Below, one piece after another: positions 3,968 through 55,243 of a DNA stretch of 64,000 nucleotides. The stretch is from contig CANHQZ010000002.1 in assembly GCA_947463125.1 (NCBI GenBank), positions 46,951 to 110,950 of the forward strand. Direction: 5' to 3'. The translations under genes and the position numbers were made by a program. Source of the stretch: Flavobacteriales bacterium (GTDB lineage: Bacteria; Bacteroidota; Bacteroidia; NS11-12g; UBA955). The notes beneath the pieces were generated by a model, which saw only the letters and a program-made list of their open reading frames with translations, searched no databases and had not been told where the DNA came from. Within the stretch, counting starts at the first letter, position 1, and every line of letters starts with the position of its first letter.

Positions 3968-4220
3968 AAAATTTCAACTTTTCGTCTTACGAAGATAACC
4001 GGCAATGAAAATGTAAAACAATGTTTCATCGTTTAACATTATCAATTACGCGATTAAGGGAGTTTTTAATATTGTTTTGCAGTTTCCTTATTTACAAAGA
4101 ACTTTGGGCACAAAATTTGGCTTATTGTAGTTAATATGAATTCAAAAACATTCAATTCCCTTTAATTACGCAGTTTTAGACTGTTTGAGAAGGTGGAGTT
4201 TGTTTTAATGTACAGTTTTT

Positions 4221-7200
4221 GTGTTTATAATAATATACAAATCAGTGCTTATGAAAAACAACATTACGAAATCAATCTTACTGGCTTCTGCAGTTATTCT
4301 TACCGCAAAGCTCCATGCACAGCAGACCATCGGACTGCAAATGGGTAACCACAATGCTTCTTATGCCTATGCATTGAATCCTGCACAGACCTATTCCAGC
4401 AAAAACCGGTTTTATTTCAACTTCTGGGGCGCCGGTGCGGGATTCACTAACAATTTTCTGACCTATTCAGCCCCTTTCAGCCTTTGGCAAATGGGTGCCG
4501 GAAATTATCCAGATAAATACAAGAATGCGGCAGGCAACCTGGATTTTAATCCATCCTGGCTGAAACTCGACGGAAATACAGATAACTGGAAACTGTACTA
4601 TCTGGATGAAGCCTATGGACCGTCCATGCACTTCAGGATAACTCCGAGAACCGCCATCGGTTTTGGTATAAAGTCGGTGGCCGGAATGAGTATTACCGGC
4701 GTTAATAAAAACCTGGGCAATCTTTTCAAGTTTGGCCTGGATAGCAATGGACAGGGTTTTTCGGGCCCAAATGGTGCGCAAATTGGCGTGGATTATGACA
4801 TTTCAAGGTTCTCCATCAACACAGACAAGTGGCAAGAGTGGTTCTTTTCTCTGGCTGGTGTTACCCGTGACAAGGGACGTCATTTTACCAAATGGGGCGC
4901 TACCGGAAAAATGCTGCTGGGCATGGGTGCAGCGCATCTGGGTTCAACCGGAGGCACTTACCGTTTCAATAACTATAACCAAGTGCAGTTTAATAATTTG
5001 CAATCTACCTGGTTTCATACCGACGATGAAAGTGCAACACGCACCCTTACCAGCCCTTTTGGGATGAAATTTGATTTTCTCCAGGGTGGAGGTTTGGGCG
5101 CCGATATTGGTTTTATGTATGAAAACCGGCCGGAAAAAGGCAGAAAGCGCTATAATAATCCCTGGTTTGATTGCCTGGATGAAGATAAAAACGAATATAG
5201 ATGGCGTTTTGGATCCAGTTTGACCGACCTCGGCTTTATTGTTTATGGTGGTCAAAACAGGCTGATAAACAATAAAAACGCTACATGGAACGTGAACAGA
5301 AACCTGGTAAATACATATCAGGGTTTTGGCACGGATCCGCTGACCAATGTGAGTACCGGTTTTTACGACAGCCTGAATTCGGATGCTGCCAACAATTTTG
5401 TCACCACTACGCCTGCCGCCTTGAATGTGCAGTTTGATCGCAGTTTTGGCAATGATTTCTATCTTGGGGTAAACTGGACCCACAGTTTGAAAGGCGATTA
5501 TGCCTGGGGTGTCCGCCGTGCCTCATTCCTCAGTGCCGTTCCTCGCTGGGAAACCGAACATGCTGAAATTGGCATGCCACTGACCCTTACAAGGGATTAT
5601 GAACAATTGAATGTTGGATTATACGGACGTTTAGGCCCATTCACACTGGGAACAGACAACCTTGCAGGAATCATGAAGTATGCCTCCAAAGGTGAATATA
5701 CCGGAGCAAATGTTTATTTCGGTGTGCGTTTGAAGCTGGAAGCCTGCGGCTGGTGGTACTACAGATCAAAAGAATACAAGGATTCCGTAAGAAATACCAA
5801 AACAGAAGTTCAAAAGAACGATACTTTCTGGAAGAGGGATACTATTACAGTCATTAAGCGCGATACCATCCGCAAGACAGATACGGTTGTAAAGTATAAA
5901 AATACCGAAGTGAGGCCCGATCTCAGGAATAAAGAAGAGGAGCTGCGCAAAAAAGAGGCAGAGCTGAGGGCAAAAGAAGAAGATTTGCGCAAACGGGAAC
6001 AGAACATTACCGGTACCGGGGGCAATTGCAAAGCTTGTCAGGATGAACTGCTTTTTGTGAGACAGCAACTCACCAATACCCGTGACCAATTATCCAGGAT
6101 TCGCACCCAACTGGATGATTGCAACCGCAATAAGGCTGTAATTACCGCAGAAAATGAAGATTTGAAAAAGAGAAATGCGGCACTGGCTGCCGAGGTAGAC
6201 AAACTGAAGCGGGAGAACGCCGTATTGCGACTTAACACCAATCCCTGCGACAGACAGGTGAGGAGTCGGGATTCACTGCTGGCCGTGGAAAGAGAGAGAA
6301 ATGCCCGCATTCAGGCTGAGCTTGACAAGAAGAAGGCAGATTGTGATATAGTGCAGAAAGAATTGGATAATACCAAAAAAAGGGTATCGGTGCTGGAAGC
6401 GGAAGTGGCGGAAGGCAAAAAGAGAATTGCCGTTTTGGAAACCGAATTGTCTAATTGCAGGCTGGGCAACGCAGGAAGCAATGCTGATTGCCTAAACAGG
6501 GTGAAACAGCTGGAAGCTCAGATTGCTGCTGAAAAACAGAAAAATGCAGCCCTTGAGAAAGATCTTGCCGACACCAAAGTGAAACTGGATGCCGAAGTTA
6601 AGAAAAATGCCACACTGATGCTTGATCTCGATGCCTGCCGTAAGGCTTCTGCGCTGGATAAAAAACGGATTGCTGAACTGGAAGCCTTGCTAAAAAACAG
6701 CAACAGCGGTGATTGCGGACCGTTTAAACAAAGAATTGCAGAACTGGAGGCGGAGGTTGCAACGCTGAAAGCCAACCAGGATAAGCAAACAAAGACCATT
6801 TCCGAACTGGAAGCCAAGCTGAAAAACGGAAGTGGTTCAGAAGAGCTGAATAAGTGCAAGGCCGATCTGGAAGCTGCCAGAAAGCGTATTGCAGAGCTGG
6901 AAGCTGAATTGGTAAATATAAAAAAACAGCGAGATCAGTATCAGGCAGAACTGGAGGCCAACAAGAAGAAAGTGGCTGAACTGGAAGCTAAGCTTAAAGA
7001 CTGCGAAAGCAAGGGGAATAGCTGCACTGAATGTGAGGAAGAACTGGCTCAGATTAAAATTCAGCTGGAGCAGAAAGAAAATGCTTACAATGCGCTCAGA
7101 GAGGAACAAAAGGCTTGCATAAAAGCCCTTGAATCTACCAGAGCCAAACTGACTGAAGCAGAAAACAAGCTGAAAAATGGAGCCGGTGACAAGAGCAACA

Positions 7201-7445
7201 AGGAAAAAGAACTGCAGGCTGAAATTGACAGGCTGAATTTAATCATCCTGCAGTTGAATGCGGATGTTAAAGCGCGTCAGAATTCACTGGATGACCTAAA
7301 AGAGGCATACGAAAAACTCGAGAACAGCAATGCTGAACTGGCAGGCAGAATAAAAACCATGCAGGCCGAACTCGATTTGCTGAAGAATCAGATCAACACA
7401 CTGCGTATGCAATTAAAAGAATGTCAGGAGGCAAGCGGCAAATAA
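4221..7445 (+). CDS. Secreted hypothetical protein: putative outer-membrane beta-barrel domain fused to a long Cys-rich coiled coil
   Basis: It has a signal peptide. The first ~520 aa are Gly/aromatic-rich beta-type sequence ending ...GANVYFGVRLKL. From ~aa 540 to 1074 it is an uninterrupted heptad-type coiled coil with repeated KRIAELEAEL-like units and about 20 regularly placed Cys residues. Confidence 0.6.
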   Translation: MFIIIYKSVLMKNNITKSILLASAVILTAKLHAQQTIGLQMGNHNASYAYALNPAQTYSSKNRFYFNFWGAGAGFTNNFLTYSAPFSLWQMGAGNYPDKYKNAAGNLDFNPSWLKLDGNTDNWKLYYLDEAYGPSMHFRITPRTAIGFGIKSVAGMSITGVNKNLGNLFKFGLDSNGQGFSGPNGAQIGVDYDISRFSINTDKWQEWFFSLAGVTRDKGRHFTKWGATGKMLLGMGAAHLGSTGGTYRFNNYNQVQFNNLQSTWFHTDDESATRTLTSPFGMKFDFLQGGGLGADIGFMYENRPEKGRKRYNNPWFDCLDEDKNEYRWRFGSSLTDLGFIVYGGQNRLINNKNATWNVNRNLVNTYQGFGTDPLTNVSTGFYDSLNSDAANNFVTTTPAALNVQFDRSFGNDFYLGVNWTHSLKGDYAWGVRRASFLSAVPRWETEHAEIGMPLTLTRDYEQLNVGLYGRLGPFTLGTDNLAGIMKYASKGEYTGANVYFGVRLKLEACGWWYYRSKEYKDSVRNTKTEVQKNDTFWKRDTITVIKRDTIRKTDTVVKYKNTEVRPDLRNKEEELRKKEAELRAKEEDLRKREQNITGTGGNCKACQDELLFVRQQLTNTRDQLSRIRTQLDDCNRNKAVITAENEDLKKRNAALAAEVDKLKRENAVLRLNTNPCDRQVRSRDSLLAVERERNARIQAELDKKKADCDIVQKELDNTKKRVSVLEAEVAEGKKRIAVLETELSNCRLGNAGSNADCLNRVKQLEAQIAAEKQKNAALEKDLADTKVKLDAEVKKNATLMLDLDACRKASALDKKRIAELEALLKNSNSGDCGPFKQRIAELEAEVATLKANQDKQTKTISELEAKLKNGSGSEELNKCKADLEAARKRIAELEAELVNIKKQRDQYQAELEANKKKVAELEAKLKDCESKGNSCTECEEELAQIKIQLEQKENAYNALREEQKACIKALESTRAKLTEAENKLKNGAGDKSNKEKELQAEIDRLNLIILQLNADVKARQNSLDDLKEAYEKLENSNAELAGRIKTMQAELDLLKNQINTLRMQLKECQEASGK
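6360..7010 (+). repeat. Intragenic degenerate tandem repeats (GAACTGGAAGC core) encoding IAELEA coiled-coil units
   Basis: The core ...(att/gtg)gc(a/t)ga(a/g)ctgga(a/g)gc... recurs at ~6373, 6427, 6667, 6733, 6799, 6889 and 6973. Spacings of 54 to 240 nt give the repeated (K/R)(I/V)AELEA peptide. Confidence 0.5.
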
Positions 7446-7467
7446 ATTGGCCGTATGCAATCAACGA

Positions 7468-7494
7468 AAAGGGCGTCTTATGACGCCTTTTTTT
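7468..7494. terminator. Bidirectional rho-independent terminator between convergent genes
   Basis: GGCGTC-ttat-GACGCC hairpin flanked by an A-run 5' and a T7 run 3'. It lies in the ~50-nt gap between the stop of 4221..7445 (+) and the stop of 7496..9949 (-). Confidence 0.75.
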
Positions 7495-7495
7495 A

Positions 7496-9949
7496 TTAGA
7501 ATTCTGCCCGTAGCCGAATATTCAGCCTTCTTCCTGTAAGGTATTCGGGCACGCCGTAAACATTGTTTTCAATGTCTTTTACCCAGTTGTAGGAAATAAC
7601 ATTGTTGATTCCCAGAATATTGAAAATCTCTACGCTAATCCAGGTTTCCTGCAGTTTTCTGAGTAGGCCGGTTCTGGGTCTGTCTTTGTCATTTCGGCTC
7701 AGTATTACCTTGCTGAACCCCATATCCAGCCTGCGGTAAGGTGGAATGGTGTTGGGACGCGCCGCATATCGGCTTTGTCCATCGAGAAAATAAGGCATAC
7801 CGGTTCCTATAATCATATTCAGGTTTACACGGAATGTAGGATTACCGGGCAGCTGGTCCTGAAGCATAGCGGCAAAATTGACCCTTCTGTCCGTGGGTCT
7901 TCTCAGCCATTCGCTTTGAACCAGTTCTCCACTGTTGTTGGTGTAATTGATTCTCTCGCGGGTTTGCAGTACGCTTAGGGTAAACCAGCTTTCCAGTCCT
8001 TTGATAAATTCTCCGTTTATGCGATTGTCTACACCCCAGGCATAGCCCGAGCTGCTGTTTTCTGCATAATAACGAACGCGGATATTGTCGTATAGATAGG
8101 GAACCAGCCTGTCAAGATGTTTGTAATACGCCTCGGTGGTGAATTTGAATTTGCGGCTCCACATGTATATGAACCTGTCGGTACCCGCCACCAGGTGCCA
8201 TGCCTGCTGTGCCTGCAATTGCCTGTTTAAAACCCCTGAAAAGTTGCGCAACTCCCTGAAATAGCCCTGCTGAAAATAGCCACCCGCTGCCAGTTTGATG
8301 ATTTTATCCTTCTTTTTCAAACTGTCGGGCAAACCTGCATTTAGCTTTTTGTTGGGCTCCCAGCTGAACTGAAGCCTGGGAGTAACAAAAAATTCATTGT
8401 TTACCTGCCACCACTGCCCTCGCAACCCCACATTCAACCACATATTGCGCTGTTTGTCCAGCCTGAATTTGTTTTGTACAAACCCCTGTACCCGAAAACT
8501 TTCCAGTGTATTGCGTGAATTTACCTGGTCATCCAGAATGATACTGTCTGAAGCAAAGCCAAACGGGCGAATGTTGTACATCGCACTGTCATTATAGCGC
8601 CACTCTTTGTAGCGGTCCGATATGCGTTCATGGTTTACACGTAAGCCATATTTGAAAATATTGCGTTTATCGGGCTTGGTGAAAGTGCCAATGTGTGAGA
8701 AGTTGAGAATACGGCTCTGTAATCGGTTTCTGCCATGGTCCAGAAAATAGCCAAAGCCCAGCGTTTTGAGCGGTTTGCCGTATGTTTTGCTTCCCATGTC
8801 CCGGTCAAGCAGGCTCAGCTGGTAAGCTCCTTCAATATCAAACAATTCCTGCTCTGAGGTTCCTGTTGCGCTGAAAATCCACTTGAATTCTTTGCCTGCA
8901 TCCGGATTAAACTTGAAGGTAAGCGCTCCCATAGCATAATCATAATTCATCTGCTCGGCTCCGGCCATGCCCACATCCAGCTGATAAGCCTGAGAAACGG
9001 TTCCAAACTCGGTTCTTCTGCTTTCAGGTGTAAGGTTGTAGCGGTTCAAAGCCATATTACCCAGAAATTCTACCTTCCAGCGCCTCCACAATTTGCGGCT
9101 AATCAGCGTTTGTACATCAGCAAAATTCATGCGGTAGGCTCCCTGAAGATCCAAACTTCCGGTAAGTAATGAATTGCTAAAATGCCTCACACCCAGAATT
9201 GCTGATGTCTTTTTTGTTTTTCCTTCAATGGCAAAACTGTTCAGCAAAAGCCCGGCTGTGGCTGAAACGGAAAAAGCTGTGGGTTGCACGTATTCCACAT
9301 CCAGCACACTGCTCATTTTATCTCCATACTGGGCATCAAAACCACCGGCACTGAATTTGAGGGTTTTAACCAAATCAGGGTTGATGAAACTTAAACCTTC
9401 CTGCTGTCCGCTGCTGATAAGCTGAGGACGGTAAATTTCAATATCGTTCACATAAATCAGGTTTTCATCATAGTTGCCTCCGCGAACGCTGTATTGGGAA
9501 GACAATTCGCTGTTGCTGTTGGCACCCAGTGTTTTGATGATAGCCTCAATGCCTCCGGTGGTGGGGTTCATGCGCAAATCGCGGGGTCTGATTTCATCTA
9601 GAAACGGCGTGTATTCTTCACGGCCCGAGATTTCAATTTGAGGCAAAAAATCCAGTCCGGTTCCTTCGTAGATCACCCTTTCCACCTGTGCTGACCAATC
9701 TTTGGGCAGTCGATATCCGAAAATCTTGCGGTTTCCCTGATATCCAAAAATCAGGTTGGTTAAGGGTATAGTAAAATCACCGTTATTGTCCGTTATCGCC
9801 AGCGTTTCACCATTGCTGTTTTTAATGACAATGCCAACCGCGGGATCGCCGCTGATTAGCCTGACTTTTGCCCAAAACATGGTTTTTTGCTGTGCATGTA
9901 ACTGCCCGATAATGCATAAAAGCAGCGCGAGGCAGGATTTTTTTAGCAC
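7496..9949 (-). CDS. TonB-dependent receptor-like outer membrane protein with an N-terminal carboxypeptidase-regulatory-like domain
   Basis: It has a CarboxypepD_reg-like segment (VGIVIKNSNGETLAITDNNGDFTIP) followed by plug/barrel-like sequence. The C-terminal residue is Phe (...RLRAEF). The track ORF extends to 10048. A GTG at ~9949 gives a canonical signal peptide, MLKKSCLALLLCIIGQLHAQQ, so the start was trimmed to 9949. Confidence 0.7.
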   Translation of the reverse strand: MLKKSCLALLLCIIGQLHAQQKTMFWAKVRLISGDPAVGIVIKNSNGETLAITDNNGDFTIPLTNLIFGYQGNRKIFGYRLPKDWSAQVERVIYEGTGLDFLPQIEISGREEYTPFLDEIRPRDLRMNPTTGGIEAIIKTLGANSNSELSSQYSVRGGNYDENLIYVNDIEIYRPQLISSGQQEGLSFINPDLVKTLKFSAGGFDAQYGDKMSSVLDVEYVQPTAFSVSATAGLLLNSFAIEGKTKKTSAILGVRHFSNSLLTGSLDLQGAYRMNFADVQTLISRKLWRRWKVEFLGNMALNRYNLTPESRRTEFGTVSQAYQLDVGMAGAEQMNYDYAMGALTFKFNPDAGKEFKWIFSATGTSEQELFDIEGAYQLSLLDRDMGSKTYGKPLKTLGFGYFLDHGRNRLQSRILNFSHIGTFTKPDKRNIFKYGLRVNHERISDRYKEWRYNDSAMYNIRPFGFASDSIILDDQVNSRNTLESFRVQGFVQNKFRLDKQRNMWLNVGLRGQWWQVNNEFFVTPRLQFSWEPNKKLNAGLPDSLKKKDKIIKLAAGGYFQQGYFRELRNFSGVLNRQLQAQQAWHLVAGTDRFIYMWSRKFKFTTEAYYKHLDRLVPYLYDNIRVRYYAENSSSGYAWGVDNRINGEFIKGLESWFTLSVLQTRERINYTNNSGELVQSEWLRRPTDRRVNFAAMLQDQLPGNPTFRVNLNMIIGTGMPYFLDGQSRYAARPNTIPPYRRLDMGFSKVILSRNDKDRPRTGLLRKLQETWISVEIFNILGINNVISYNWVKDIENNVYGVPEYLTGRRLNIRLRAEF

Positions 9950-9980
9950 AGATATGAAACGAAAAAGGTTAATTTTTCTT

Positions 9981-10640
9981 TTATGAATTGGCCGTTTTGT
10001 GAAGTGCAGCAATGGTAGCCAAAGGATCCGGGGTGGCAAAAACAGCATTTCCTGCTACCAGAACATCTGCCCCGGCCTTTGCCAGGGCGAGTGCATTGGA
10101 CTCTGATACACCGCCATCCACTTCGATCAATGCCTGAGAATTGCGTTGTAAAATCATTTCTTTCAATTCGGAAACCTTGCGATAGGTGTTTTCAATAAAA
10201 GCCTGTCCGCCAAAACCGGGATTTACACTCATGATCAGCACCAGGTCGCAATCCTGAATGATGTCATGCAGCAAAGAAACCGGTGTGTGTGGATTTAAAG
10301 CCACACCTGCCTTCATGCCTTGTTTTCTTATTTCAGCAAGGCTGCGGTGCAGGTGAGTACTGGCCTCATAATGGACAGTCAGAACGTCTGCGCCGGCTTC
10401 TGCAAAACGCTGAATGTAGCGCTCGGGTTCCACAATCATCAGGTGCACATCAAGTGTTTTGGATGCGTGCTTTTTCAGCACATTCATTACGGGAAAACCA
10501 AAGGAAATGTTGGGAACAAAAACCCCGTCCATCACATCCACATGATACCAGCCGGCATCACTTTGGTTGATCATTTCACAGTCTCGCTGAAGGTTGCCGA
10601 AATCGGCAGAGAGTACTGAAGGAGCAATAATGACTGACAT
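9981..10640 (-). CDS. rpe: Ribulose-phosphate 3-epimerase
   Basis: 219 aa. Full-length RPE signature (SVLSADF...HVDVMDGVFVPNISFG...HLMI...). Confidence 0.9.
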   Translation of the reverse strand: MSVIIAPSVLSADFGNLQRDCEMINQSDAGWYHVDVMDGVFVPNISFGFPVMNVLKKHASKTLDVHLMIVEPERYIQRFAEAGADVLTVHYEASTHLHRSLAEIRKQGMKAGVALNPHTPVSLLHDIIQDCDLVLIMSVNPGFGGQAFIENTYRKVSELKEMILQRNSQALIEVDGGVSESNALALAKAGADVLVAGNAVFATPDPLATIAALHKTANS

Positions 10641-28310: not shown

Positions 28311-29009
28311 GTGGAATTTCCGGTAGAAATCCAGAACGCAACCATTTACCAGGGCCGAATCCCGGTGCTGAATGAGGTGAATATTCGCATCAACAAAGGC
28401 GAGTTTGCGTATCTAATTGGTAAAACGGGTTCGGGTAAGTCCAGCCTGCTTAAAACCCTTTACGGTGAACTTCCGCTAACGGAAGGAACCGGTAATGTAG
28501 CTGGAATCGGTTTGCAAGATTTAAAAAAGGCACAGATTCCTTATCTGCGCAGAAAACTGGGCATTGTTTTTCAGGATTTTCAGTTACTGACCGACCGCAG
28601 CGCCCTGGATAACCTTTTGTTCGTGCTCAAAGCTACGGGCTGGAAAGACAAACAGCAACGCATTGACAGGGCCAATGAGGTTCTTGCCAAAGTAGGGCTG
28701 GAAAACAAAGGGTACAAAATACCGGCAGAACTAAGCGGTGGTGAACAGCAACGCCTGGTTATTGCGCGTGCACTCCTGAATAACCCCGAGGTGATTCTGG
28801 CCGATGAACCCACCGGAAACCTGGATCCCGATGTCTCCGACGAGGTAATGCGCATGTTGCAGGATGTTTGTAAGGAAGGACGCTCTGTGGTTATGGCAAC
28901 CCATGATTACCGGCTCATTGAAGAGTTTGGCGGTACCATCTACCGCGTGGCAGGTGGTAAAGTCAACAAAATAGATTCTCTCAAAGAATTAGTGCCGAAT
29001 CAACAGTAA
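28311..29009 (+). CDS. ftsE: FtsE-like ABC transporter ATP-binding protein
   Basis: Intact Walker A GKTGSGKSS, signature LSGGEQQRLVIARAL, Walker B ILADEPTGNLD. The ~230-aa size is typical of FtsE/LolD-type ATPases. Confidence 0.65.
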   Translation: MEFPVEIQNATIYQGRIPVLNEVNIRINKGEFAYLIGKTGSGKSSLLKTLYGELPLTEGTGNVAGIGLQDLKKAQIPYLRRKLGIVFQDFQLLTDRSALDNLLFVLKATGWKDKQQRIDRANEVLAKVGLENKGYKIPAELSGGEQQRLVIARALLNNPEVILADEPTGNLDPDVSDEVMRMLQDVCKEGRSVVMATHDYRLIEEFGGTIYRVAGGKVNKIDSLKELVPNQQ

Positions 29010-30512
29010 GGTTCTGGCGGCATTTGCAGCATCAATCATATAGGTTCCATCTGACAAATCTGAAACGGAAATCGTTCCTGAAACCGATCTGATCGTTTTT
29101 ACCAAAGTCCCATTGATCTGGAAAATGCGTACATATTTGCCGATGAAGGCCGGCGAATAAACTTCATTTTGTGCAGGATTGGGGAACAATGCAATATTCT
29201 GCTTTTTATCAATCGTATTGCCTGCAGGATAAATCATTTGCTGCAAAGCGGTGGTTGTGCGCTCGCTGATATAGGGTTTCACACCAAAACTCACATGGTT
29301 GCCCCAGGCTTTGGTATCGGCTTGCTGCCAGTCTGCGAGCGTAAAACCATAGTCGGAAGCCCTGGCTCCCGTGAAGTAGGGATCAGCAGCCACCGCCGCT
29401 GCCACGATAGACTTGTGGTTATCAATAATGGCAAACAGGCTGTCTGCCTTGTAAGCACCGTCAATCAGGTTTCGCAATTCCTGTTCATAAGCCATTTTCC
29501 ACCGGGTCACCCCAAGTATTTTATAGGTAAGGGGAGCTTTTGAGTTAGTCAGCTTGCCCCAGGCATGAATATTTCGTTTTTGGATATCGCTAACACCCCA
29601 TTGCACACCGAATGTATTATCCATGTCGTACGGTATGTATACAAAGCGGTTATCCGACATTCTGTGGTAAAGGAAATAATTGTTTTTATTGTAAAAGTAA
29701 TTGTCCCAGTGCCCCATCAGAACCTCTGCCGCCAGCACTTTCAGATAGGCATTCACATCAAAAACCTGCTCAATCCAAGATTCAAAGGAATCTTTTGGGC
29801 TGTTGTTGATTACATTGATAAAATAAACAAGATCACTGTAATCATCGGCGACGGTATTGGTTTTCAATTCATAAGCCCGCTCATTCAGGGGAGAAGGATT
29901 GATTAGGTCTTTGTAAGGTTGCTGGAATGAACCCAGCCAGCCCAGATCTGCAGGCCAGCTGCATTTGTAGAGGTTTCCTATGCTTTCGCCAAATCGGGAT
30001 TGGAGAAATGTTTTATCGATGTATTCTGAATGGTTTCTCAATCCCTGATATGTGCCATTTACGTACAACCTGACAGGATTACTGCGCGTTGCAACAATTC
30101 CGGCCCGGGCCAGAAATCGTGCACTGAGAAATTCCCGAACCAAGGAAGGATCGTTGTGGTTGCCATTCAGGTTCATGTTTTTCAGCCCCTGATAGGTTTG
30201 GCTCTGAAATGCACCCAAATCCAGGCGGTAGCCTCTCTTCTCCGCTTCACGGGATGAATTTCCTTTCACACGCATTCCGATATTGCGCAGCGTGTCTTTT
30301 TGATCGTAAATAAACAATGAAGAAAAATAAACATTGTCCCATACGTTTTTATTCATCTTCGTCCAGCTGTCCTTGGGTAAGAAAATATCGACACGGTGGA
30401 TTTTATTGTCGTAAATAGTTCCGTTTTGCGGCCATACGGCTTGCTGCGCCTCCAGGTGCCGCGTTGGAAGCAGAAAAGTCACGGCCAAAAAGAAGCAGCG
30501 GAAGATTTTCAT
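28989..30512 (-). CDS. CotH-family (atypical kinase fold) protein with a T9SS C-terminal sorting domain
   Basis: Signal peptide, then a CotH-like core. The C-terminal ~80 aa (LFPNPAQNEVY...GTLVKTI...SDLSDGTYMI) are a type-A Por secretion tail. It overlaps the upstream membrane-protein gene by 4 nt. Confidence 0.7.
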   Translation of the reverse strand: MKIFRCFFLAVTFLLPTRHLEAQQAVWPQNGTIYDNKIHRVDIFLPKDSWTKMNKNVWDNVYFSSLFIYDQKDTLRNIGMRVKGNSSREAEKRGYRLDLGAFQSQTYQGLKNMNLNGNHNDPSLVREFLSARFLARAGIVATRSNPVRLYVNGTYQGLRNHSEYIDKTFLQSRFGESIGNLYKCSWPADLGWLGSFQQPYKDLINPSPLNERAYELKTNTVADDYSDLVYFINVINNSPKDSFESWIEQVFDVNAYLKVLAAEVLMGHWDNYFYNKNNYFLYHRMSDNRFVYIPYDMDNTFGVQWGVSDIQKRNIHAWGKLTNSKAPLTYKILGVTRWKMAYEQELRNLIDGAYKADSLFAIIDNHKSIVAAAVAADPYFTGARASDYGFTLADWQQADTKAWGNHVSFGVKPYISERTTTALQQMIYPAGNTIDKKQNIALFPNPAQNEVYSPAFIGKYVRIFQINGTLVKTIRSVSGTISVSDLSDGTYMIDAANAARTLLLIRH

Positions 30513-32017
30513 TTTGCAGAAGACAGTTTGTAAATATAGAGATTGCCGTACAATGTAGGTATTGATCCTGTCACTATTGCACTTGTTGGCTTCACCTGCT
30601 GTTGTTTATTGAGCATGCTGTTTCGGCTTACTGGCATGGGGTAGTTATATACATCCGTATACACCGGTGATTTTTGGATGGTGTTGAGTGAGTCTGCATC
30701 CATAAATGTGATTCCTTCTTCCTTGAATTTTTTTTGATAATAGGGCGTTTGTGTAGACAGGTAATTCTCCAGCATTACCCTTTCTCTCGCAATGAAGATT
30801 AGGTTTTTGGCCTTTTCTTCTTCCGCGATTTTCAATAACAAATTCAATTCAGCGCCGTACCTTATTGTTTTAATATTGGCGTTGGGAATCAAATAAACTC
30901 CCAGGTTCCAACAGAGCATGGCAGTTGCCAAAGGCAATGCTTTGTGTTGCCATTTTATTAGGAAAGCAGGGAAGGAAAGCAGCAGCAAAAACGGAATCAT
31001 GACCATGAATTCGGCGTTGCCCACAGAATATACGGCCCATAAAAACTGCAAAATCAAGGCAAAACGCAGCCAGCGAAAGCCTGAGAAGTTGTTTTGCGTT
31101 TTTTCATGGATGTTATTTTGGTTTTTTGCAAGAATTGCAACAGCAGTCAAGCCCAATGCCAGTATGGGAAAAGCCCATAACCATGTCCACGCATCGAGAA
31201 AATATGGAATGTTGCCGTGCACCTGAATCCAAGTTCGTATGCTGTTGATTGCGCTATACTTCAGGTTGTCAAATCCGGGAATTAGGGAAACGGTGCCATT
31301 CATGGCATCCGAAAAAGGATATTGCCACCAGATTTTATGCTCGTAGGTGGCAGAACCAACATAGGCAAGCAATATTATGCCCAAAGAAATTCCCGCTGCA
31401 ACCCATTTTTGTTTACCTGCCGGGAAAAATAAAACTGCCGCAAGCCACCACCAGCAATGGATTTGGTGAAACAACACCGCCAATGCCAGCAAGCCGAATC
31501 CGGCGTATAGGTTCGCATGGTTTTCTGCTTTTTGGTGTTTTAATAAATACAGCGTTCCCCACAGGCTCAGCAACAGCGGTAATAGGTAGGTTTCATTTTC
31601 CGTAGCAAAACGCATGGTGGCGAATGCACTTCCTGCAAGCATTACAGCTGCTTTGGCAGCTGACTTGTTGTCTGAAATCAATTCAAAACAACGCTTTAAC
31701 AGGTATAAAGAACCCGCAGCTGCGATGGCATTGATGGCCTGCATCCACATTAGGTAATGCGTAAAGTGCTTTCCAATAAGCCCGTAGGTAATTTGCCCGA
31801 AAGGCCCATAGAGCAGGTGGTGCGGGGAGAAAAGCCATTTCCCGGACTCGGCATTTTGCAGAAATTCACCGGCATAACCCACCGCATCGCCGGAAGGGTT
31901 AATACCCGGCAAAAGCAGGTATAAAAGCCCAAATCCAAGCCATGCGAGAGACAATATCCGGTTTTTAACCGCCTGCATACAGGCAAAGGTAAGATACAGG
32001 GCGTATCTTTGCCGCAT
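30509..32017 (-). CDS. Polytopic membrane protein, putative GT-C-fold glycosyltransferase
   Basis: 502 aa with ≥10 hydrophobic helices and a C-terminal soluble domain. Its layout resembles PMT/ArnT-like GT-C enzymes. The family assignment is tentative. Confidence 0.45.
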   Translation of the reverse strand: MRQRYALYLTFACMQAVKNRILSLAWLGFGLLYLLLPGINPSGDAVGYAGEFLQNAESGKWLFSPHHLLYGPFGQITYGLIGKHFTHYLMWMQAINAIAAAGSLYLLKRCFELISDNKSAAKAAVMLAGSAFATMRFATENETYLLPLLLSLWGTLYLLKHQKAENHANLYAGFGLLALAVLFHQIHCWWWLAAVLFFPAGKQKWVAAGISLGIILLAYVGSATYEHKIWWQYPFSDAMNGTVSLIPGFDNLKYSAINSIRTWIQVHGNIPYFLDAWTWLWAFPILALGLTAVAILAKNQNNIHEKTQNNFSGFRWLRFALILQFLWAVYSVGNAEFMVMIPFLLLLSFPAFLIKWQHKALPLATAMLCWNLGVYLIPNANIKTIRYGAELNLLLKIAEEEKAKNLIFIARERVMLENYLSTQTPYYQKKFKEEGITFMDADSLNTIQKSPVYTDVYNYPMPVSRNSMLNKQQQVKPTSAIVTGSIPTLYGNLYIYKLSSAK

Positions 32018-52239: not shown

Positions 52240-53567
52240 TTTTTTGGTTTGGTTGGGCCGGTTTCGGCTTTGTAATAGTCAGGAGGGAATCCATTCAGCT
52301 GTCTCCAGATTTCATACCACACACGAACCCGATTCAATAAAAGGTATCCATTGGATCCGGTTCCAACGCGCAGCTGAGATGGCCACTGTTTACCACCAGC
52401 CTCCGGTGCCACAAGGAGTCGGTATTTGCCATTTACCGAAGGGATGTTGTCAATAGCAAAAACACGCCCGGGAAAAGTACCATAAGTATAATTAGGCCAG
52501 CCTGAAAATACAATCGTCGGCCAACCATCAAACACGAAGTTTACATGCTGACCCTTTTTAACCAAGGGCATATCCATGGGATCAACATACATTTCTACCG
52601 CAAGGTGCACGGAAGACGGCATAACAGTACAAATGGCCTGACCCTCTTTTACAGTTTCTCCTATTCCACTAGCCAACGTCTTAGTAACATAACCGTCCTG
52701 CGGTGCAAGAATGATGTAAAAACCACTGCGTATGCTGTAGTTACTGAATTGGTTTCGTAATTTACTAACCTCTGCTTCGGTCTCCATTTGATTGCTTATG
52801 GCGCTGAATCTTTCACTTTCAGCTTTTGCCATTTTTTCACCGTATTCAGCTGTGACGTTCCGAAGTTCAAATTTTGCGTTTTCCAGCGATGCTTTTGCTG
52901 CTACAAGCTTGTTTTCAGCAGAAATACGTTTTGCAAGACTTTCCTGCCATTTAACCCGCCTGTTTTCAACGTCAAGCGGGCTTTTAATTCCTTTCTTCTC
53001 CAAAGCACTGTCTCGTTGAAACTGCTGACGGGCAATTCTTTCACCGGTTTTGGCAGCTTCTACTTCCGCAGCTTCGCTGTTTACTTTCATCTGCTCCTGT
53101 TCTACTTTGTTTTTCGCCTGCCTTAATTTGAAATCCTGATTGATTTCTAGTTGGGTTATCTGACGGTTAATGGCGTCAATCTTAGAACTGTAGCTGGTAA
53201 TGCTGTTTTCCTTTGCTCTGATCTGCGTCTCAGTTTGCTCAAGCAACTTTGGATCCAGGTAGCTCTCCTTTACTTCGCTGATGCGAACAATGGTGTCACC
53301 TTTTCTTACATAATCCCCTTCAATTACATGCCATTTTTCAATTCTTCCTCCAATGATAGTTTGAATTTCCTGAGGTCGCTGATTAGGCAACAGTGTGGTT
53401 ACAATGCCCTTTGTTTGTATATTCTGTGTCCATGGCAGAAACATGAAAAGAACAAACAGCAGCGATAGCCAGATTAGTACTTTGCTCATCCGTCTTTGCG
53501 TCCAGGGACTCTCTGTCAGCAATAATTCACTCTGGTAAGTTCCGTTTTTTTCTTTCATTAATGCCAT
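52236..53567 (-). CDS. HlyD-family membrane fusion (type I secretion periplasmic adaptor) protein
   Basis: N-terminal TM, a long coiled-coil hairpin, and a C-terminal beta-barrel/lipoyl fold (…GQHVNFVFDGWP…). Confidence 0.85.
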   Translation of the reverse strand: MALMKEKNGTYQSELLLTESPWTQRRMSKVLIWLSLLFVLFMFLPWTQNIQTKGIVTTLLPNQRPQEIQTIIGGRIEKWHVIEGDYVRKGDTIVRISEVKESYLDPKLLEQTETQIRAKENSITSYSSKIDAINRQITQLEINQDFKLRQAKNKVEQEQMKVNSEAAEVEAAKTGERIARQQFQRDSALEKKGIKSPLDVENRRVKWQESLAKRISAENKLVAAKASLENAKFELRNVTAEYGEKMAKAESERFSAISNQMETEAEVSKLRNQFSNYSIRSGFYIILAPQDGYVTKTLASGIGETVKEGQAICTVMPSSVHLAVEMYVDPMDMPLVKKGQHVNFVFDGWPTIVFSGWPNYTYGTFPGRVFAIDNIPSVNGKYRLLVAPEAGGKQWPSQLRVGTGSNGYLLLNRVRVWYEIWRQLNGFPPDYYKAETGPTKPKK

Positions 53568-55243
53568 GTGATATCCTGAATTAACTGTGGAACATTGTTA
53601 GCTGTTATTTTGCCAAGCTCAGTAAAGCCGTTTTCATCCAAAAATAAACAGGAATCTGCTTGTGACAAAACAGGTATCTGATTGCTGATAAAAATGACGG
53701 TGGAGTTTATGTTTCTAATGTGACTCCAAATTGCTTCAAGTTCTTTTTTGGTGAATGCACTCCACACATCATCAATCAAAACAAGCGGGGGAGTATGATA
53801 CAACGCTCGAGCCAGTGGTATTTTTCGCGCAATATTGTTAGGTATGCCGCTTTCAGACTCAAATTCATAGTTAAAACCTCCGGGAAGCGAAGAAACAAAA
53901 GTGTGTAAGTTGAGTGCTTTGCTAAGGTTGGTAAGTTCCGTCAAATCTGGCTCATTTCCGAGCACAATGTTCTGCGCAAGTGTACCTTCAAAGATGTGGC
54001 TTCCCTGAAGACAGATACCGGTAATGCTGCCAAGTCCCTTTCCTGATATGTTTTCAACAGGAACGTTATTCAGCTGCGAAGCGAACTCGGTTTCCATGTC
54101 GCCAATAATGGTTTTTAGTATTCGGGTTCTTCCGGTACCTGGCATTCCGCATATCCCAACTTTCTGGCCGGCTTTAATCACAGCAACAGGTTTACCGCTT
54201 TTCCGATCTACCAGAGTAACCGAGGGCGCTTCTGAAATTATATTGGTTTTAGGGGTGTGTTCAGTTCGGTCGTCTATACTCACATCGGTAACGGAGCCCA
54301 ATTTTTCAAGGGCTATCCCGGCATCATAAACAGATTCTACCGAAATGACAAGTTTTCCCACCGCATCAACCAGCGAAATAATCAAGATTTCTGAAGCCAG
54401 AAACTGCCCAAGACTTATGTCTTCCCGAACCAGTAAAAAGCTTCCAAGAAAGAGCATGGCCATGGTCAAAATAACTTTCATGCCTATAGCTATGGCTGCC
54501 TGATTGTATAAAACTCGGAAATGAGCCTGTCGGCTGTTTACATACCCTTTTAGATATTCGTCTGTTTTCTTCAGATGGAAATTTTGTTCCTGTTTGAGGT
54601 TAAAGGTTACCCTGTTCTGTGCAATTTCGGTAAGCCAAAAAGCAGTTTTAAATTTGTAGTTACTTTCAGCACGAGCAGATTGTACTCCTCTGTTGTAGGT
54701 AGCTCTCAAAACAATGGCAACCAAAATGAGCAATGTAAAGCCAAATAGAAGAAATGCAGGGTGATAGATTGCCAGCAGGATAACGCCAAATAAGATCTCA
54801 AGCAGGGAAGTGGTAAAGCTGAGAAGAATTTTACTAAAACTTTTTTGAACGGTGATAATGTCCAGAAATTTTTCAGACAGCTCCAGAAGACTGTTGTATT
54901 TCTTGAGCAGTTTGGTGGCAGATGCGAGTTTTTGAGAGAAATCGAAGGCAGTGCGAACAAATAATTTACTCTGTATCGATTCTAAAATACTCAACTGTGC
55001 GAGTCCAGTGAGGCCGGAAAGTAAAATGGCCAGAGTGATGAGTACTATCAGGATAAACCAGCTGCTACTAAGTTTTCCTGCCAGAACCAAACCGATGATG
55101 GCCTGAATCCCTAAAGGCACAATCAGGCTGATGGCACCAGCCAGAACGGCATATATGTATAGAAACCGAATGTTTCTTTTTTCAGTTCCCACAAGGCTCC
55201 AGATTCTCTTAAACGGGCTGAGGGTCTCGGGGTATGATTTCAT
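53558..55243 (-). CDS. T1SS-type ABC exporter (fused TMD-NBD) with degenerate catalytic motifs in the nucleotide-binding domain
   Basis: Six-TM exporter domain, then an NBD in which Walker A is GMPGTGRT (Lys to Arg), the signature reads ESGIP instead of LSGGQ, Walker B is LVLIDD (Glu to Asp) and the H-loop His is replaced (FISNQI). It lacks an N-terminal C39 peptidase domain. Confidence 0.8.
   Translation of the reverse strand: MKSYPETLSPFKRIWSLVGTEKRNIRFLYIYAVLAGAISLIVPLGIQAIIGLVLAGKLSSSWFILIVLITLAILLSGLTGLAQLSILESIQSKLFVRTAFDFSQKLASATKLLKKYNSLLELSEKFLDIITVQKSFSKILLSFTTSLLEILFGVILLAIYHPAFLLFGFTLLILVAIVLRATYNRGVQSARAESNYKFKTAFWLTEIAQNRVTFNLKQEQNFHLKKTDEYLKGYVNSRQAHFRVLYNQAAIAIGMKVILTMAMLFLGSFLLVREDISLGQFLASEILIISLVDAVGKLVISVESVYDAGIALEKLGSVTDVSIDDRTEHTPKTNIISEAPSVTLVDRKSGKPVAVIKAGQKVGICGMPGTGRTRILKTIIGDMETEFASQLNNVPVENISGKGLGSITGICLQGSHIFEGTLAQNIVLGNEPDLTELTNLSKALNLHTFVSSLPGGFNYEFESESGIPNNIARKIPLARALYHTPPLVLIDDVWSAFTKKELEAIWSHIRNINSTVIFISNQIPVLSQADSCLFLDENGFTELGKITANNVPQLIQDITWH

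What the first reader, a model, noticed from the sequence alone, without database searches (positions are those of the whole stretch)
4221..7445. Outer-membrane-barrel-like domain fused to a ~550-aa cysteine-studded coiled coil
The N-terminal ~520 aa after the signal peptide look like an outer-membrane beta-barrel or FadL/PorP-like domain. They are Gly/Tyr/Trp/Asn-rich and end in an aromatic beta-strand, ...YFGVRLKL. This is fused to an uninterrupted heptad coiled coil of ~550 aa. About 20 Cys residues are spaced along the helix, including CxxC pairs (GNCKACQDE, NSCTECEEE) and singles roughly every 25 to 40 residues. Coiled coils exported past the inner membrane with this many Cys would be expected to form inter-chain disulfides, giving a covalently stapled rod anchored in the outer membrane. 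A fully extended 550-aa coiled coil would be ~80 nm, far longer than the periplasm is wide. It is therefore either a hairpin periplasmic spanner or envelope ruler, or a surface fibril. I know of no characterised Bacteroidota protein with this combination. The gene is monocistronic, with a promoter region at 3968..4220 and a strong terminator at 7468..7494.
Basis: seen in the sequence. Interest (0 to 1): 0.75.

Follow-up and report, generated by a model that had tools for sequence, protein, structure and literature searches.

The report
FadL-like barrel with cysteine-stapled rod
This gene encodes an outer-membrane barrel of the FadL type fused to a very long helical rod whose conserved cysteines sit where two parallel chains touch. 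It represents an uncharacterised but widespread Bacteroidota protein family that probably forms a covalently locked strut inside the cell envelope.

Summary
The ORF is real. Its start is probably ATG 4251, giving 1064 aa, and a public MAG record already calls it a 'DUF5723 family protein'.

- **Rod.** It is not one uninterrupted coiled coil. There are eight helices (556-1061) separated by seven short Gly/Asn/Ser breaks. It carries 15 Cys, not about 20.
- **Cysteines.** All window Cys are conserved in the orthologues that cover them. In 28 divergent homologues, 88% of 429 Cys lie at heptad a or d, and 73% at d. Charge pairs between g and e' are attractive 5:1, and Cys counts are odd in half the homologues. 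Together these point to a parallel, in-register oligomer, probably a dimer, with homotypic interchain disulfides.
- **Linker.** Residues 500-555 are packed with the Bacteroidota O-glycosylation sequon.
- **Location.** Paralogues carry OmpA_C peptidoglycan-binding domains at the same C-terminal position, so the rod is most likely periplasmic, not a surface fibril.
- **Distribution.** At least 28 clusters at 50% identity share the architecture. All named ones come from MAGs and none is characterised.
- **Function.** A role as an envelope strut or spacer is inferred, not shown.

The parts
3968..4250 (+). Intergenic region upstream of the gene, shared with the divergent S49 peptidase gene. The promoter is not located.
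   Evidence: Sequence read. There is no TAnnTTTG motif, and sigma-70-like matches occur at background frequency.
4251..7445 (+). Coding sequence, 1064 aa plus stop. The ORF opens at GTG 4221, but ATG 4251 is the likely start.
   Evidence: Orthologues align from MKN... onward. The identical 1064-aa product is in public collections.
4251..4319 (+). Signal peptide, residues 1-23, of signal peptidase I type. Cleavage is ...KLHA|QQ. Gln24 at +1 is invariant or nearly so in the family.
   Evidence: Sequence. Q24 is invariant and nearly invariant. There is no lipobox Cys.
4320..4406 (+). N-terminal hatch-like segment, residues 24-52, with short helices and the FadL-type NPA motif (N43-P44-A45, nt 4377-4385).
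   Evidence: DSSP and pLDDT above 90. N43 and P44 are nearly invariant. The role of NPA in FadL is described in PMC8407342.
4407..5744 (+). DUF5723 / FadL-like transmembrane beta-barrel, residues 53-498. I count 14 strands from the DSSP string.
5172..5174 (+). Cys308, in the long turn 293-317 that I infer to be periplasmic. It is the predicted disulfide partner of Cys499.
   Evidence: Cys308 and Cys499 co-occur in 31 sequences, are both absent in 57, and are discordant in 2. The 31 are exactly the Cys-coil subfamily.
5745..5747 (+). Cys499, immediately after the last barrel strand. It is invariant in the long subfamily.
5748..5915 (+). Linker, residues 500-555. It is predicted non-helical with low confidence and carries four D(S/T)(AILVMT) O-glycosylation sequons: DSV511, DTI530, DTI538, DTV544.
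   Evidence: pLDDT below 50. Four sequons are observed against 0.31 expected. The family density is 5.1 per 100 aa against 0.17 in the barrel. The motif is defined in PMC8550257 and PMC12871550.
5916..6008 (+). Helix 1, residues 556-586. It is highly charged, with Leu at heptad a only and Lys/Arg at d.
6030..6224 (+). Helix 2, residues 594-658, preceded by C593-x-x-C596 at heptad a and d. It holds C624 at d and Asn at a positions 635, 642 and 656.
6255..6467 (+). Helix 3, residues 669-739. It starts after the conserved break motif P-C666-xxQxKxxDSLLAxE and holds C698 (a) and C736 (d of this helix).
6486..6689 (+). Helix 4, residues 746-813, with C747 (d in this helix's register) and C796 (d).
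6717..6824 (+). Helix 5, residues 823-858, preceded by C822 (a).
6837..7013 (+). Helix 6, residues 863-921, with C869 (d) and C918 (d). Orthologues have an extra Cys at position 860.
7026..7178 (+). Helix 7, residues 926-976, preceded by C925-x-x-C928 at a and d, with C956 (d). Orthologues have extra Cys at 970 and 977.
7194..7433 (+). Helix 8, residues 982-1061. Its occupancy in the family alignment is the highest of the eight helices (0.99). It ends in the invariant L1055-x-x-C1058 (d), then the tail QEASGK.
7466..7493 (.). Bidirectional intrinsic-terminator hairpin (AAAAGGGCGTC-TTAT-GACGCCTTTTTT) between the two convergent genes.
   Evidence: RNAfold gives dG -17.0 kcal/mol.

Best explanation
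The gene encodes a Sec-exported outer-membrane protein of Bacteroidota with four parts.

1. A FadL-like, DUF5723-family beta-barrel. Its N-terminal NPA-bearing segment is hatch-like, and I infer that it plugs the barrel.
2. A short linker that leaves the barrel on the periplasmic side. It is probably pinned to a periplasmic turn by a C308-C499 disulfide and is probably O-glycosylated at three or four D-T/S-I/V sequons.
3. A rod of about 505 residues made of eight alpha-helices joined by short Gly/Asn/Ser hinges.
4. A short C-terminal tail.

Two chains, or less likely more, pair in parallel and in register along the rod. The 15 conserved cysteines lie at core positions, mostly heptad d. Each therefore faces its own copy in the partner chain and forms a homotypic interchain disulfide in the oxidising periplasm. 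The result would be a covalently locked, hinged rod up to about 70 nm long, hanging from a pair of outer-membrane barrels.

Shown here: the fold of the barrel, family membership, helix segmentation, Cys conservation and register, the g-e' charge signature, sequon enrichment and the domain swap with OmpA_C in paralogues.

Inferred: periplasmic location, dimer state, actual disulfide formation, glycosylation, and the function. I take the function to be mechanical: an envelope strut, spacer or sub-outer-membrane lattice element. This would be analogous in principle to the coiled-coil stalks of OmpM/SlpA and to Lpp, which I understand Bacteroidota lack (own knowledge, not tested).
For: **Barrel**
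- Pfam PF18990 at E 4.6e-26, 92.8 bits, covering profile positions 5-376 of 376.
- AlphaFold pLDDT 86, pTM 0.77.
- N43 and P44 of the NPA motif are nearly invariant. The motif is functionally essential in FadL (PMC8407342).

**Periplasmic C-terminus**
- 36 of the best 150 family representatives carry TSP3 repeats and/or an OmpA_C-type C-terminus after the same barrel. Pfam confirmed the OmpA family domain in four I scanned: P0035, P0047, P0109 and P0114.
- P0114 and P0109 have barrel, then helical spacer, then RDT repeats, then OmpA_C.
- The C-tail of the FadL-like BamG touches periplasmic BamD (PMC12611786).
- T. pallidum FadL-likes are modelled with C-terminal three-helix-bundle domains (PMC8407342). 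That gives a precedent for helical C-terminal extensions on FadL barrels.

**Rod**
- Eight helices.
- With Cys scored neutrally, 13 of 15 window Cys fall at a or d (P = 5e-6). The other two are at d in the register of the adjacent helix.
- In 28 homologues, 429 Cys are 73% at d and 15% at a, against 14% of Ser/Thr at a or d.
- g-to-e'(+5) charge pairs are 27 attractive to 4 repulsive in the window and 739 to 146 in the family. All other i-to-i+5 registers have ratios of 0.7-1.6.
- Asn is four times commoner at a than at d.
- Neighbouring d positions are the disulfide-competent positions of parallel coiled coils. A natural d-position Cys forms a homotypic disulfide in a two-stranded parallel coil (PMC6146289).
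- The Cys count is odd in 15 of 28 homologues. The window has lost three Cys that its orthologues keep, including C860 while keeping the neighbouring C869. This is expected for self-pairing, not for intrachain pairs.

**Cys conservation**
- All 17 window Cys are conserved in every orthologue that covers the position. These orthologues are 65-72% identical in the rod, and 87% for the partial L003. C596, C666, C918, C925 and C1058 are kept in all four more distant homologues aligned, whose rods are 28-36% identical.

**Clamp**
- C308 and C499 co-occur 31 / 57 / 2 and mark exactly this subfamily.

**Linker**
- Sequon density is 5.1 per 100 aa against 0.17 in the barrel and 0.39 in the rest.
Against: - No coordinates were available, so neither Cys-Cys distances nor the side of the membrane on which the C-terminus emerges could be measured. 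Topology rests on strand parity read from DSSP and on paralogue domain content.
- No multimer prediction was possible. The monomer model of the rod has pTM 0.27, so the spatial arrangement of the eight helices is unknown.
- Oligomer number is not determined. g-e' pairing also occurs in parallel trimers and tetramers.
- A fully extended rod of about 70 nm is longer than a periplasm is wide, so 'spacer' cannot mean a simple perpendicular strut.
- The Cys-coil subfamily has no recognisable peptidoglycan- or membrane-binding domain at its distal end.
- No conserved neighbouring gene hints at a partner.
- No member has experimental data.
Confidence: 0.55

Rival explanations
1. The rod folds back on itself at the hinges into a compact antiparallel helical bundle in the periplasm, like spectrin repeats. 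The cysteines then form intrachain disulfides across the loops, for example C736-C747 and C918-C925, rather than linking chains.
For: - Cys flank most breaks: 736/747, 918/925, 860/869 in orthologues and 970/977 in orthologues.
- Helices 2, 3 and 4 have similar lengths of 65, 71 and 68 aa.
- OmpM's stalk can crystallise as helical hairpins instead of an extended coil (PMC10628300).
Against: - The g-to-e'(+5) attractive bias (5:1) is the signature of parallel packing.
- Cys is overwhelmingly at d. An antiparallel pair would need a-d' partners (PMC6146289).
- Cys counts are odd in 15 of 28 homologues.
- The window lost C860 but keeps C869.
- The mid-helix Cys 624, 698, 796 and 956 have no symmetrically placed partner.
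Confidence: 0.15
2. The rod is displayed on the cell surface as a fibril or adhesin. It would be exported through or beside its own N-terminal barrel, as in inverse autotransporters such as intimin and invasin.
For: - The domain order, N-terminal barrel then C-terminal extension, is that of type Ve autotransporters.
- Extracellular sequons are occasionally O-glycosylated as well (PMC12871550).
Against: - The confidently modelled N-terminal segment with the NPA motif corresponds to the FadL hatch, which in FadL fills the lumen (PMC8407342). I infer that this leaves no channel for a passenger linker.
- Paralogues place the periplasmic OmpA_C domain at the same position.
- The rod has no Ig-like, lectin or other adhesin domains.
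Confidence: 0.08
3. It is an Lpp-like covalent tether between outer membrane and peptidoglycan. The rod ends in ...C-Q-E-A-S-G-K, and the C-terminal lysine would be cross-linked to peptidoglycan by an L,D-transpeptidase. Salmonella LppB likewise combines a C-terminal Cys disulfide with a terminal Lys.
For: - A terminal Lys is present in the window and in all complete close orthologues, which end ...GK. P0010 and P0015 also end in Lys.
- LppB forms disulfide-linked dimers through a C-terminal Cys and cross-links to peptidoglycan through its terminal Lys (bioRxiv 10.1101/2025.11.13.688167).
Against: - Most distant family members end differently. About 12 end in ...GGN or GN, about 9 in ...RR or R, and others in G, P, Q or T.
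- The rod is far longer than the distance from outer membrane to peptidoglycan.
- No L,D-transpeptidase is linked to the gene.
Confidence: 0.1
4. The protein is primarily a FadL-type channel for hydrophobic substrates. The rod would be a docking scaffold for periplasmic or inner-membrane partners rather than a mechanical element.
For: - The fold is FadL-like and the NPA hatch motif, essential for FadL gating, is retained.
Against: - There is no profile match to PF03349 (Toluene_X) or to any solved FadL sequence.
- Other Bacteroidota FadL-like barrels, PorV and BamG, are structural subunits rather than fatty-acid channels.
- No lipid-metabolism genes are conserved nearby.
Confidence: 0.1
5. The core cysteines are metal-binding or redox-sensing thiolate layers in a three-stranded coil rather than structural disulfides.
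For: - From my own knowledge, not tested here: designed three-stranded coils with Cys at a or d bind heavy metals.
- JGI auto-annotation calls several members 'Zn-ribbon protein'.
Against: - The Zn-ribbon label has no Pfam support.
- The compartment is presumably the oxidising periplasm.
- Asn at a and single d-layer Cys fit a dimer better.
Confidence: 0.04

Closest known systems
FadL / TodX / TbuX outer-membrane channels (14-stranded, N-terminal hatch, NPA motif)
   Same: - The N-terminal hatch-like segment carries a conserved N-P-A.
- I count 14 strands from the DSSP string.
   Different: - No sequence-profile relationship is detectable to solved FadL proteins or to Pfam Toluene_X.
- It carries a 565-aa C-terminal extension.
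- Its substrate, if any, is unknown.
PorV (T9SS shuttle) and BamG (Bacteroidota BAM subunit), the FadL-like barrels of Bacteroidota
   Same: - They show that FadL-like barrels in this phylum are used as structural or adaptor subunits.
- BamG is O-glycosylated on a periplasmic segment, and its C-tail is periplasmic (PMC12611786).
   Different: - Neither has a coiled-coil extension.
- Neither shows a sequence-level relationship.
DUF5723-TSP3-OmpA_C paralogues (e.g. P0035, P0047) and DUF5723-coil-OmpA_C (P0114, P0109)
   Same: - The barrel family is the same: 25-32% identity, E 1e-24 to 1e-50.
- The C-terminal module follows the barrel at the same point.
   Different: - Those modules end in a peptidoglycan-binding OmpA_C domain and lack the d-position cysteines.
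- They also lack the C308/C499 pair.
OmpM (Veillonella) and SlpA (Deinococcus): porin barrels with a periplasmic coiled-coil stalk
   Same: - The design principle is the same: an outer-membrane barrel is covalently continuous with a periplasmic parallel coiled coil that serves envelope architecture (PMC10628300; PMC9388160).
   Different: - The order is reversed. There the SLH domain and coil are N-terminal and the barrel C-terminal.
- Those proteins are trimeric, with 16-stranded (OmpM) or larger (SlpA) barrels.
- Their SLH domain binds peptidoglycan.
- OmpM's stalk is only about 85 residues (construct 22-107).
- I found no report of disulfide staples in the passages read.
Braun's lipoprotein Lpp and Salmonella LppB
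   Same: - It is a periplasmic parallel coiled coil attached to the outer membrane.
- LppB adds a C-terminal Cys disulfide and a terminal Lys. The window protein ends ...C-QEASG-K.
   Different: - Lpp is a short, lipid-anchored trimer (length and lipid anchor from own knowledge). Here the anchor is a barrel and the rod is about nine times longer.
- The terminal Lys is not conserved across the family.
Treponema pallidum FadL-like proteins TP0548, TP0859 and TP0865
   Same: - They are FadL-type barrels with a hatch carrying NPA (TP0548) or an NAA variant (TP0859, TP0865), and an extra C-terminal alpha-helical domain joined by a short linker (PMC8407342).
   Different: - That domain is a small three-helix TPR-like bundle, not a long Cys-punctuated coiled coil.
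Disulfide-stapled parallel coiled coils of eukaryotes
   Same: - Cys lies at core heptad positions and forms homotypic interchain disulfides that lock a marginally stable parallel coil. CEP135 Cys110 at heptad d is the example read here (PMC6146289).
- From my own knowledge, tetherin/BST-2 and the CxxC rings of COMP and matrilins are comparable.
   Different: - These are unrelated proteins in a different compartment, each with one to three staples. Here there are 15-21 staples along one rod.

Membership tests
Pfam PF18990 (DUF5723) | Profile match above the curated gathering score (26.8 bits) | tested here: met
   Window residues 25-500 score 92.8 bits, E 4.6e-26, over profile positions 5-376 of 376. 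Scans of the protein with its signal peptide and tail attached missed this, which I take to be a HMMER filter artefact. NCBI labels the identical protein 'DUF5723 family protein'.
Pfam PF18990 (DUF5723) | Outer-membrane location and beta-barrel fold | tested here: met
   Confident barrel model. A DUF5723 protein was modelled as a barrel in Brachyspira (bioRxiv 10.1101/2025.01.03.631275). Another was detected in P. gingivalis outer-membrane vesicles (PMC12937337). Location was not tested directly for this protein.
FadL family (Toluene_X, PF03349) | 14-stranded barrel fold superimposable on FadL | tested here: met
   [not shown]
FadL family (Toluene_X, PF03349) | N-terminal hatch with a conserved NPA motif | tested here: met
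   N43-P44-A45 is present. N43 and P44 are nearly invariant in 90 family sequences. The segment is modelled at pLDDT above 90.
FadL family (Toluene_X, PF03349) | Sequence-profile match to the family or to solved members | tested here: not met
   No PF03349 hit at E up to 10. No PDB sequence hit with the family profile.
FadL family (Toluene_X, PF03349) | Kink in strand S3 giving a lateral opening, and transport of hydrophobic substrates | not testable with these tools
OmpM / SlpA-type stalked porins | N-terminal SLH domain that binds peptidoglycan | tested here: not met
   No SLH hit in Pfam or NCBIfam.
OmpM / SlpA-type stalked porins | Order SLH, coiled coil, C-terminal barrel, as a trimer | tested here: not met
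   The order here is barrel then coil. Oligomer number is undetermined, but the sequence features favour a dimer.
Braun lipoprotein (Lpp) | Lipobox and N-terminal lipidated Cys | tested here: not met
   The signal peptide ends ...KLHA|QQ with no Cys.
Braun lipoprotein (Lpp) | C-terminal Lys used for the peptidoglycan cross-link | tested here: inconclusive
   K1064 is present and kept in close orthologues but absent from most distant members. The cross-link itself is not testable here.
OmpA-like peptidoglycan tethers | C-terminal OmpA_C (PF00691) domain | tested here: not met
   It is absent from the window protein and present in paralogues.
Inverse autotransporters (type Ve: intimin, invasin) | 12-stranded barrel with the linker in the pore, and a surface passenger of Ig-like or lectin domains | tested here: not met
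   [not shown]
Parallel in-register coiled coil | Heptad a/d hydrophobic core with complementary g-e' charges | tested here: met
   Positions a and d are dominated by Leu, Ile and Val. g-to-e'(+5) pairs are 27 attractive to 4 repulsive in the window and 739 to 146 in the family, with other registers near 1:1.
Bacteroidota general O-glycosylation substrates | D(S/T)(A/I/L/V/M/T) sequon in an exposed non-cytoplasmic segment | tested here: met
   Four sequons lie in the 56-aa low-confidence linker against 0.31 expected. The enrichment holds across 28 homologues. Actual glycosylation is not testable here.

The most novel reading that the evidence does not exclude
The family forms a covalently cross-linked protein lattice in the periplasm. 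Hinged, disulfide-locked rods of 70-120 nm would hang from FadL-like barrels and lie along the inner face of the outer membrane. They might also be disulfide-linked to one another out of register through their repeated Cys-bearing modules. Such a lattice would give Bacteroidota, which I understand lack Lpp, a distinct way to stiffen the outer membrane and set its spacing. It could even be the still-unidentified periplasmic track used in gliding motility.
Probability: 0.15. Interest if true: 0.85.

Novelty: new variant of a known kind. Interest (0 to 1): 0.62.

Why it matters
How the outer membrane is held, spaced and stiffened is known for Proteobacteria (Lpp, Pal, OmpA) and was recently worked out for Terrabacteria (OmpM, SlpA). 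For Bacteroidota, beyond OmpA-like proteins, it is largely open.

This family gives a concrete, testable candidate. It couples a barrel fold that Bacteroidota also use for structural roles (PorV, BamG) to a very long parallel coiled coil. The staples in that coil are conserved over deep divergence.

The protein is also an unusually clean natural example of systematic d-position disulfide stapling, with 15-21 staples per chain. That makes it of interest to coiled-coil design.

Public annotations such as 'chromosome segregation ATPase', 'SbcCD ATPase subunit' and 'Zn-ribbon protein' are wrong and should be replaced.

Tried and rejected
- **Pfam and NCBIfam on the full protein.** Only compositional coiled-coil hits appeared (SMC, Rad50, crescentin, ATG16), all far below their cut-offs. 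I rejected them as noise. The first two Pfam scans also missed DUF5723, and removing the signal peptide and tail recovered it.
- **The search for homologous proteins, twice.** Only six proteins were returned even with a family profile. The exhaustive representative search was needed to see the family.
- **Family profile against PDB sequences.** No meaningful hit.
- **Foldseek of the rod model against PDB.** Only generic long-helix proteins came back, with E above 0.001 and TM at most 0.21. This was uninformative.
- **afdb50 fold search.** The library was unavailable.
- **Conserved gene neighbours.** Synteny holds only among close relatives (S49 peptidase, TetR, efflux genes). P0015 sits beside BamD instead. 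No partner gene emerged.
- **DNA tandem repeats in the rod.** None, so the RIAELEA-type repeats are not recent duplications.
- **Rfam and tRNA scans of the window.** Nothing found.
- **Promoter search.** No convincing promoter.
- **Taxon names for the long homologues.** Those that carry a name are all from MAGs; the rest are unnamed metagenome records. No cultured organism was identified.
- **Intrachain Cys pairing across hinges.** Considered and judged less likely; see the rival explanations.

Full report
**1. The observation**

The window holds one long ORF at 4221..7445 on the + strand. The first in-frame ATG is at 4251 and gives MKNNITKSILLASAVILTAKLHA|QQ..., 1064 aa.
- Orthologues align from this Met onward.
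- The identical 1064-aa product is on record in public assemblies.
- I therefore take 4251 as the start.

Composition splits the protein sharply.
- Residues 1-510 are rich in Gly, Asn, Tyr and Trp.
- Residues 511-1064 are rich in Glu, Lys, Leu and Ala, with 2.7% Cys.
- There are 17 Cys in all, 15 of them in the C-terminal half.

The gene stands alone.
- The upstream S49 peptidase gene is divergent and the downstream TonB-receptor-like gene is convergent.
- A hairpin of -17 kcal/mol with flanking A and T runs lies between the convergent stops.
- I found no promoter motif in the 283-nt intergenic region.
- GC content matches the neighbouring genes.

**2. The barrel**

Homologues found with the N-terminal 540 aa carry Pfam DUF5723. 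The window protein scores 92.8 bits (E 4.6e-26) once the signal peptide and tail are trimmed. The earlier negative scans were a filter artefact.

All are 14-stranded FadL-family barrels. No sequence-level link to any solved structure is detectable.

The N-terminal segment is modelled as short helices. It carries N43-P44-A45, of which N43 and P44 are nearly invariant in the family. [quoted passage not shown] Reading strand parity from the DSSP string, I count 14 strands. The 25-residue turn 293-317 and the C-terminus then fall on the periplasmic side.

**3. The family**

An exhaustive HMMER search found 1159 relatives at E up to 1e-3. The best 150 cluster representatives divide as follows.

| Class | Count |
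|---|---|
| Barrel only | 63 |
| Barrel plus thrombospondin-type-3 repeats and/or an OmpA_C-type C-terminus | 36 |
| Barrel plus long Cys-rich helical extension | 28 |
| Other extensions | 10 |
| Fragments | 13 |

- Pfam confirmed the OmpA family domain in the four members I scanned for it: P0035, P0047, P0109 and P0114.
- The Cys-rich extensions give proteins of 900-1360 aa whose barrels are 29-52% identical to the window's.
- The window's architecture therefore defines a deep, conserved subfamily and is not a one-off fusion.
- Nine orthologous loci (68-89% identical best segments) come from MAGs labelled Flavobacteriaceae, Flavobacteriales, Bacteroidia, Bacteroidota/Bacteroidetes and, in one case, Sphingomonadales.
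- Homologues that carry a name are all from MAGs, and the rest are unnamed metagenome records. Labels include 'hypothetical', 'DUF5723 family protein', 'chromosome segregation ATPase' and 'Zn-ribbon protein'.
- Literature on DUF5723 amounts to a modelled barrel in Brachyspira and a detection in P. gingivalis vesicles.

**4. Which side of the membrane**

OmpA_C is a periplasmic peptidoglycan-binding domain. Its presence after the same barrel in many paralogues places the barrel's C-terminus in the periplasm. Two members, P0114 and P0109, even have barrel, helical spacer, RDT repeats and then OmpA_C.

Three further points agree.
- BamG's C-tail contacts periplasmic BamD (PMC12611786).
- Treponemal FadL-likes are modelled with C-terminal helical domains, so a helical C-terminal extension on a FadL barrel has a precedent.
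- If the hatch-like segment fills the lumen as it does in FadL, no room is left for a passenger linker.

I therefore regard surface display as unlikely.

**5. The linker**

Residues 500-555 are modelled with low confidence. They contain the conserved (K/R)DT(I/V) repeats. These match the Bacteroidota general O-glycosylation sequon D(S/T)(A/I/L/V/M/T) (PMC8550257; PMC12871550).
- The window has four sequons in 56 aa against 0.31 expected.
- Across 28 homologues the density is 5.1 per 100 aa in the linker, 0.17 in the barrel and 0.39 in the rest.
- Glycosylation of this stalk is thus a well-founded prediction.

Two further Cys, C308 and C499, co-occur in 31 sequences, are jointly absent in 57 and are discordant in only 2. 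The 31 are exactly the Cys-coil subfamily. This covariation suggests a disulfide that clamps the exit of the extension to the periplasmic turn.

**6. The rod**

AlphaFold/DSSP gives eight helices, at 556-586, 594-658, 669-739, 746-813, 823-858, 863-921, 926-976 and 982-1061. Seven breaks of 4-10 residues, rich in Gly, Asn and Ser, separate them. The coil is therefore segmented, not uninterrupted.

I traced heptads with a Viterbi scheme in which Cys scores zero in every position, so that its register is not circular. Four results follow.
- **Register.** In the window, 13 of 15 Cys fall at a or d (binomial P = 5e-6). The other two are at d in the register of the adjoining helix. In 28 divergent homologues, 313 of 429 Cys are at d and 64 at a, 88% in total. 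Only 14% of Ser/Thr fall there.
- **Conservation.** All window Cys are conserved in every orthologue that covers them. Those orthologues are 65-72% identical in the rod (87% for the partial L003). Several Cys persist in homologues whose rods are only 28-36% identical. Together with the linker sequon residues, core Leu and a few charged or polar residues, they are among the few rod positions kept in at least 75% of distant homologues.
- **Charge pairing.** Opposite charges at g and at e five residues later outnumber like charges 27 to 4 in the window and 739 to 146 in the family. Every other i-to-i+5 register has a ratio of 0.7-1.6. This is the classical signature of parallel, in-register packing.
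- **Parity.** Cys counts are odd in 15 of 28 homologues. The window has lost three Cys that its orthologues retain, including C860 while keeping the neighbouring C869.

Neighbouring d positions are the disulfide-competent sites of parallel coiled coils. A natural d-position Cys forms a homotypic disulfide in a two-stranded parallel coil (PMC6146289).

The simplest reading is a parallel homo-oligomer in which each Cys bonds its own copy in the partner chain. A dimer fits best, for two reasons. A single d layer pairs completely only in a dimer. Asn is also four times commoner at a than at d, and from my own knowledge Asn at a favours dimers.

**7. What it does**

This part is inference.
- Fully extended, the eight helices (461 residues at 0.148 nm each) plus loops span about 70 nm. 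Homologues with extensions of up to about 850 aa would be longer still.
- That exceeds any plausible periplasmic width. The rod must therefore bend at its hinges, run obliquely, or lie along the membrane.
- The distal end has an invariant L-x-x-C and a short tail but no recognisable binding domain.
- No conserved neighbouring gene suggests a partner.

I propose a mechanical role in the envelope: a covalently locked, hinged strut or lattice element hung from the outer membrane. In principle it resembles the coiled-coil stalks of OmpM and SlpA and Lpp or LppB. It differs in barrel family, domain order, length and the disulfide staples.

An Lpp-like peptidoglycan link through the terminal Lys is possible for the window's clade. 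It cannot be general, because most distant members end in GGN, RR or other residues.

**8. Verdict**

The barrel and stapled-rod interpretations are supported and sharpened to FadL-like, periplasmic, parallel, d-position staples and a glycosylated linker. The 'uninterrupted', 'surface fibril' and 'unique' elements are not supported.

The protein belongs to the known but uncharacterised DUF5723 family. Its Cys-coil subfamily is an undescribed variant of the theme 'outer-membrane barrel with periplasmic coiled coil'.

Noticed in passing
window 4251-7445 (protein scans): Pfam hmmscan misses DUF5723 when the protein is submitted with its signal peptide and tail. It finds the family at E 4.6e-26 when residues 25-500 are submitted alone. 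P0015 and P0021 show the same false negative. Automated annotation of this subfamily is therefore unreliable.
   Followed up: yes
window 6243-6290 (residues 665-680): The most conserved non-Cys motif of the rod sits at the break between helices 2 and 3: P-C-x-x-Q-x-(K/R)-x-x-D-S-L-L-A-x-E. It includes another O-glycosylation sequon (DSL674). Its role, whether hinge, partner site or glycan site, is unknown.
   Followed up: partly
window residues 860, 970, 977 (nt 6828-6830, 7158-7160, 7179-7181): The window protein has Gly, Ala and Gly where almost all orthologues have Cys. It therefore carries 15 rod cysteines instead of 18.
   Followed up: partly
window 7434-7442 and the C-termini of homologues: C-terminal residues fall into recurrent classes. 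The window clade, P0010 and P0015 end in Lys (...GK...QEK...QVK). About 12 clusters end in ...GGN or GN, and about 9 end in ...RR or R after long Ser/Thr/Asn/Gly-rich tails. No known sorting signal matches. This is unexplained.
   Followed up: partly
window 5916-6008 (helix 1, residues 556-586): The first helix, LRNKEEELRKKEAELRAKEEDLRKREQNI, has Leu only at heptad a and Lys/Arg at every d. This looks like a half zipper or a single-alpha-helix-like segment, and may be a weak or dynamic part of the rod.
   Followed up: no
L009 and the cluster of the window protein: Two public MAG records that hold this gene or an orthologue are labelled 'Sphingomonadales bacterium'. The gene content points to Bacteroidota: a DUF5723 protein, a T9SS C-terminal sorting domain, Gln at +1 of the signal peptide and O-glycosylation sequons. 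This suggests mis-binning or mislabelling.
   Followed up: no
window 28989-30512 (-): A CotH-kinase-domain protein carries a C-terminal Por_Secre_tail (T9SS sorting domain). The organism therefore has a type 9 secretion system.
   Followed up: no
window 7496-10048 (-): The convergent downstream gene (850-aa ORF) gives only a weak Plug-domain hit and no TonB-dependent receptor barrel hit. Its ORF overlaps the end of the rpe gene (9981-10640) and its orthologue is 816 aa, so the true start is probably further downstream.
   Followed up: no
P0114 and P0109: Some DUF5723 proteins have a Cys-free helical spacer and RDT[IV] repeats placed just before an OmpA_C domain. They form an apparent evolutionary bridge between the OmpA-type and coil-type architectures.
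   Followed up: partly
window 53558-55243 (-) and 30509-32017 (-): Two sizeable ORFs (561 and 502 aa) have no Pfam hit at E up to 1e-5.
   Followed up: no
window 1-64000: No tRNA gene and no Rfam family at gathering threshold in the whole 64 kb.
   Followed up: yes
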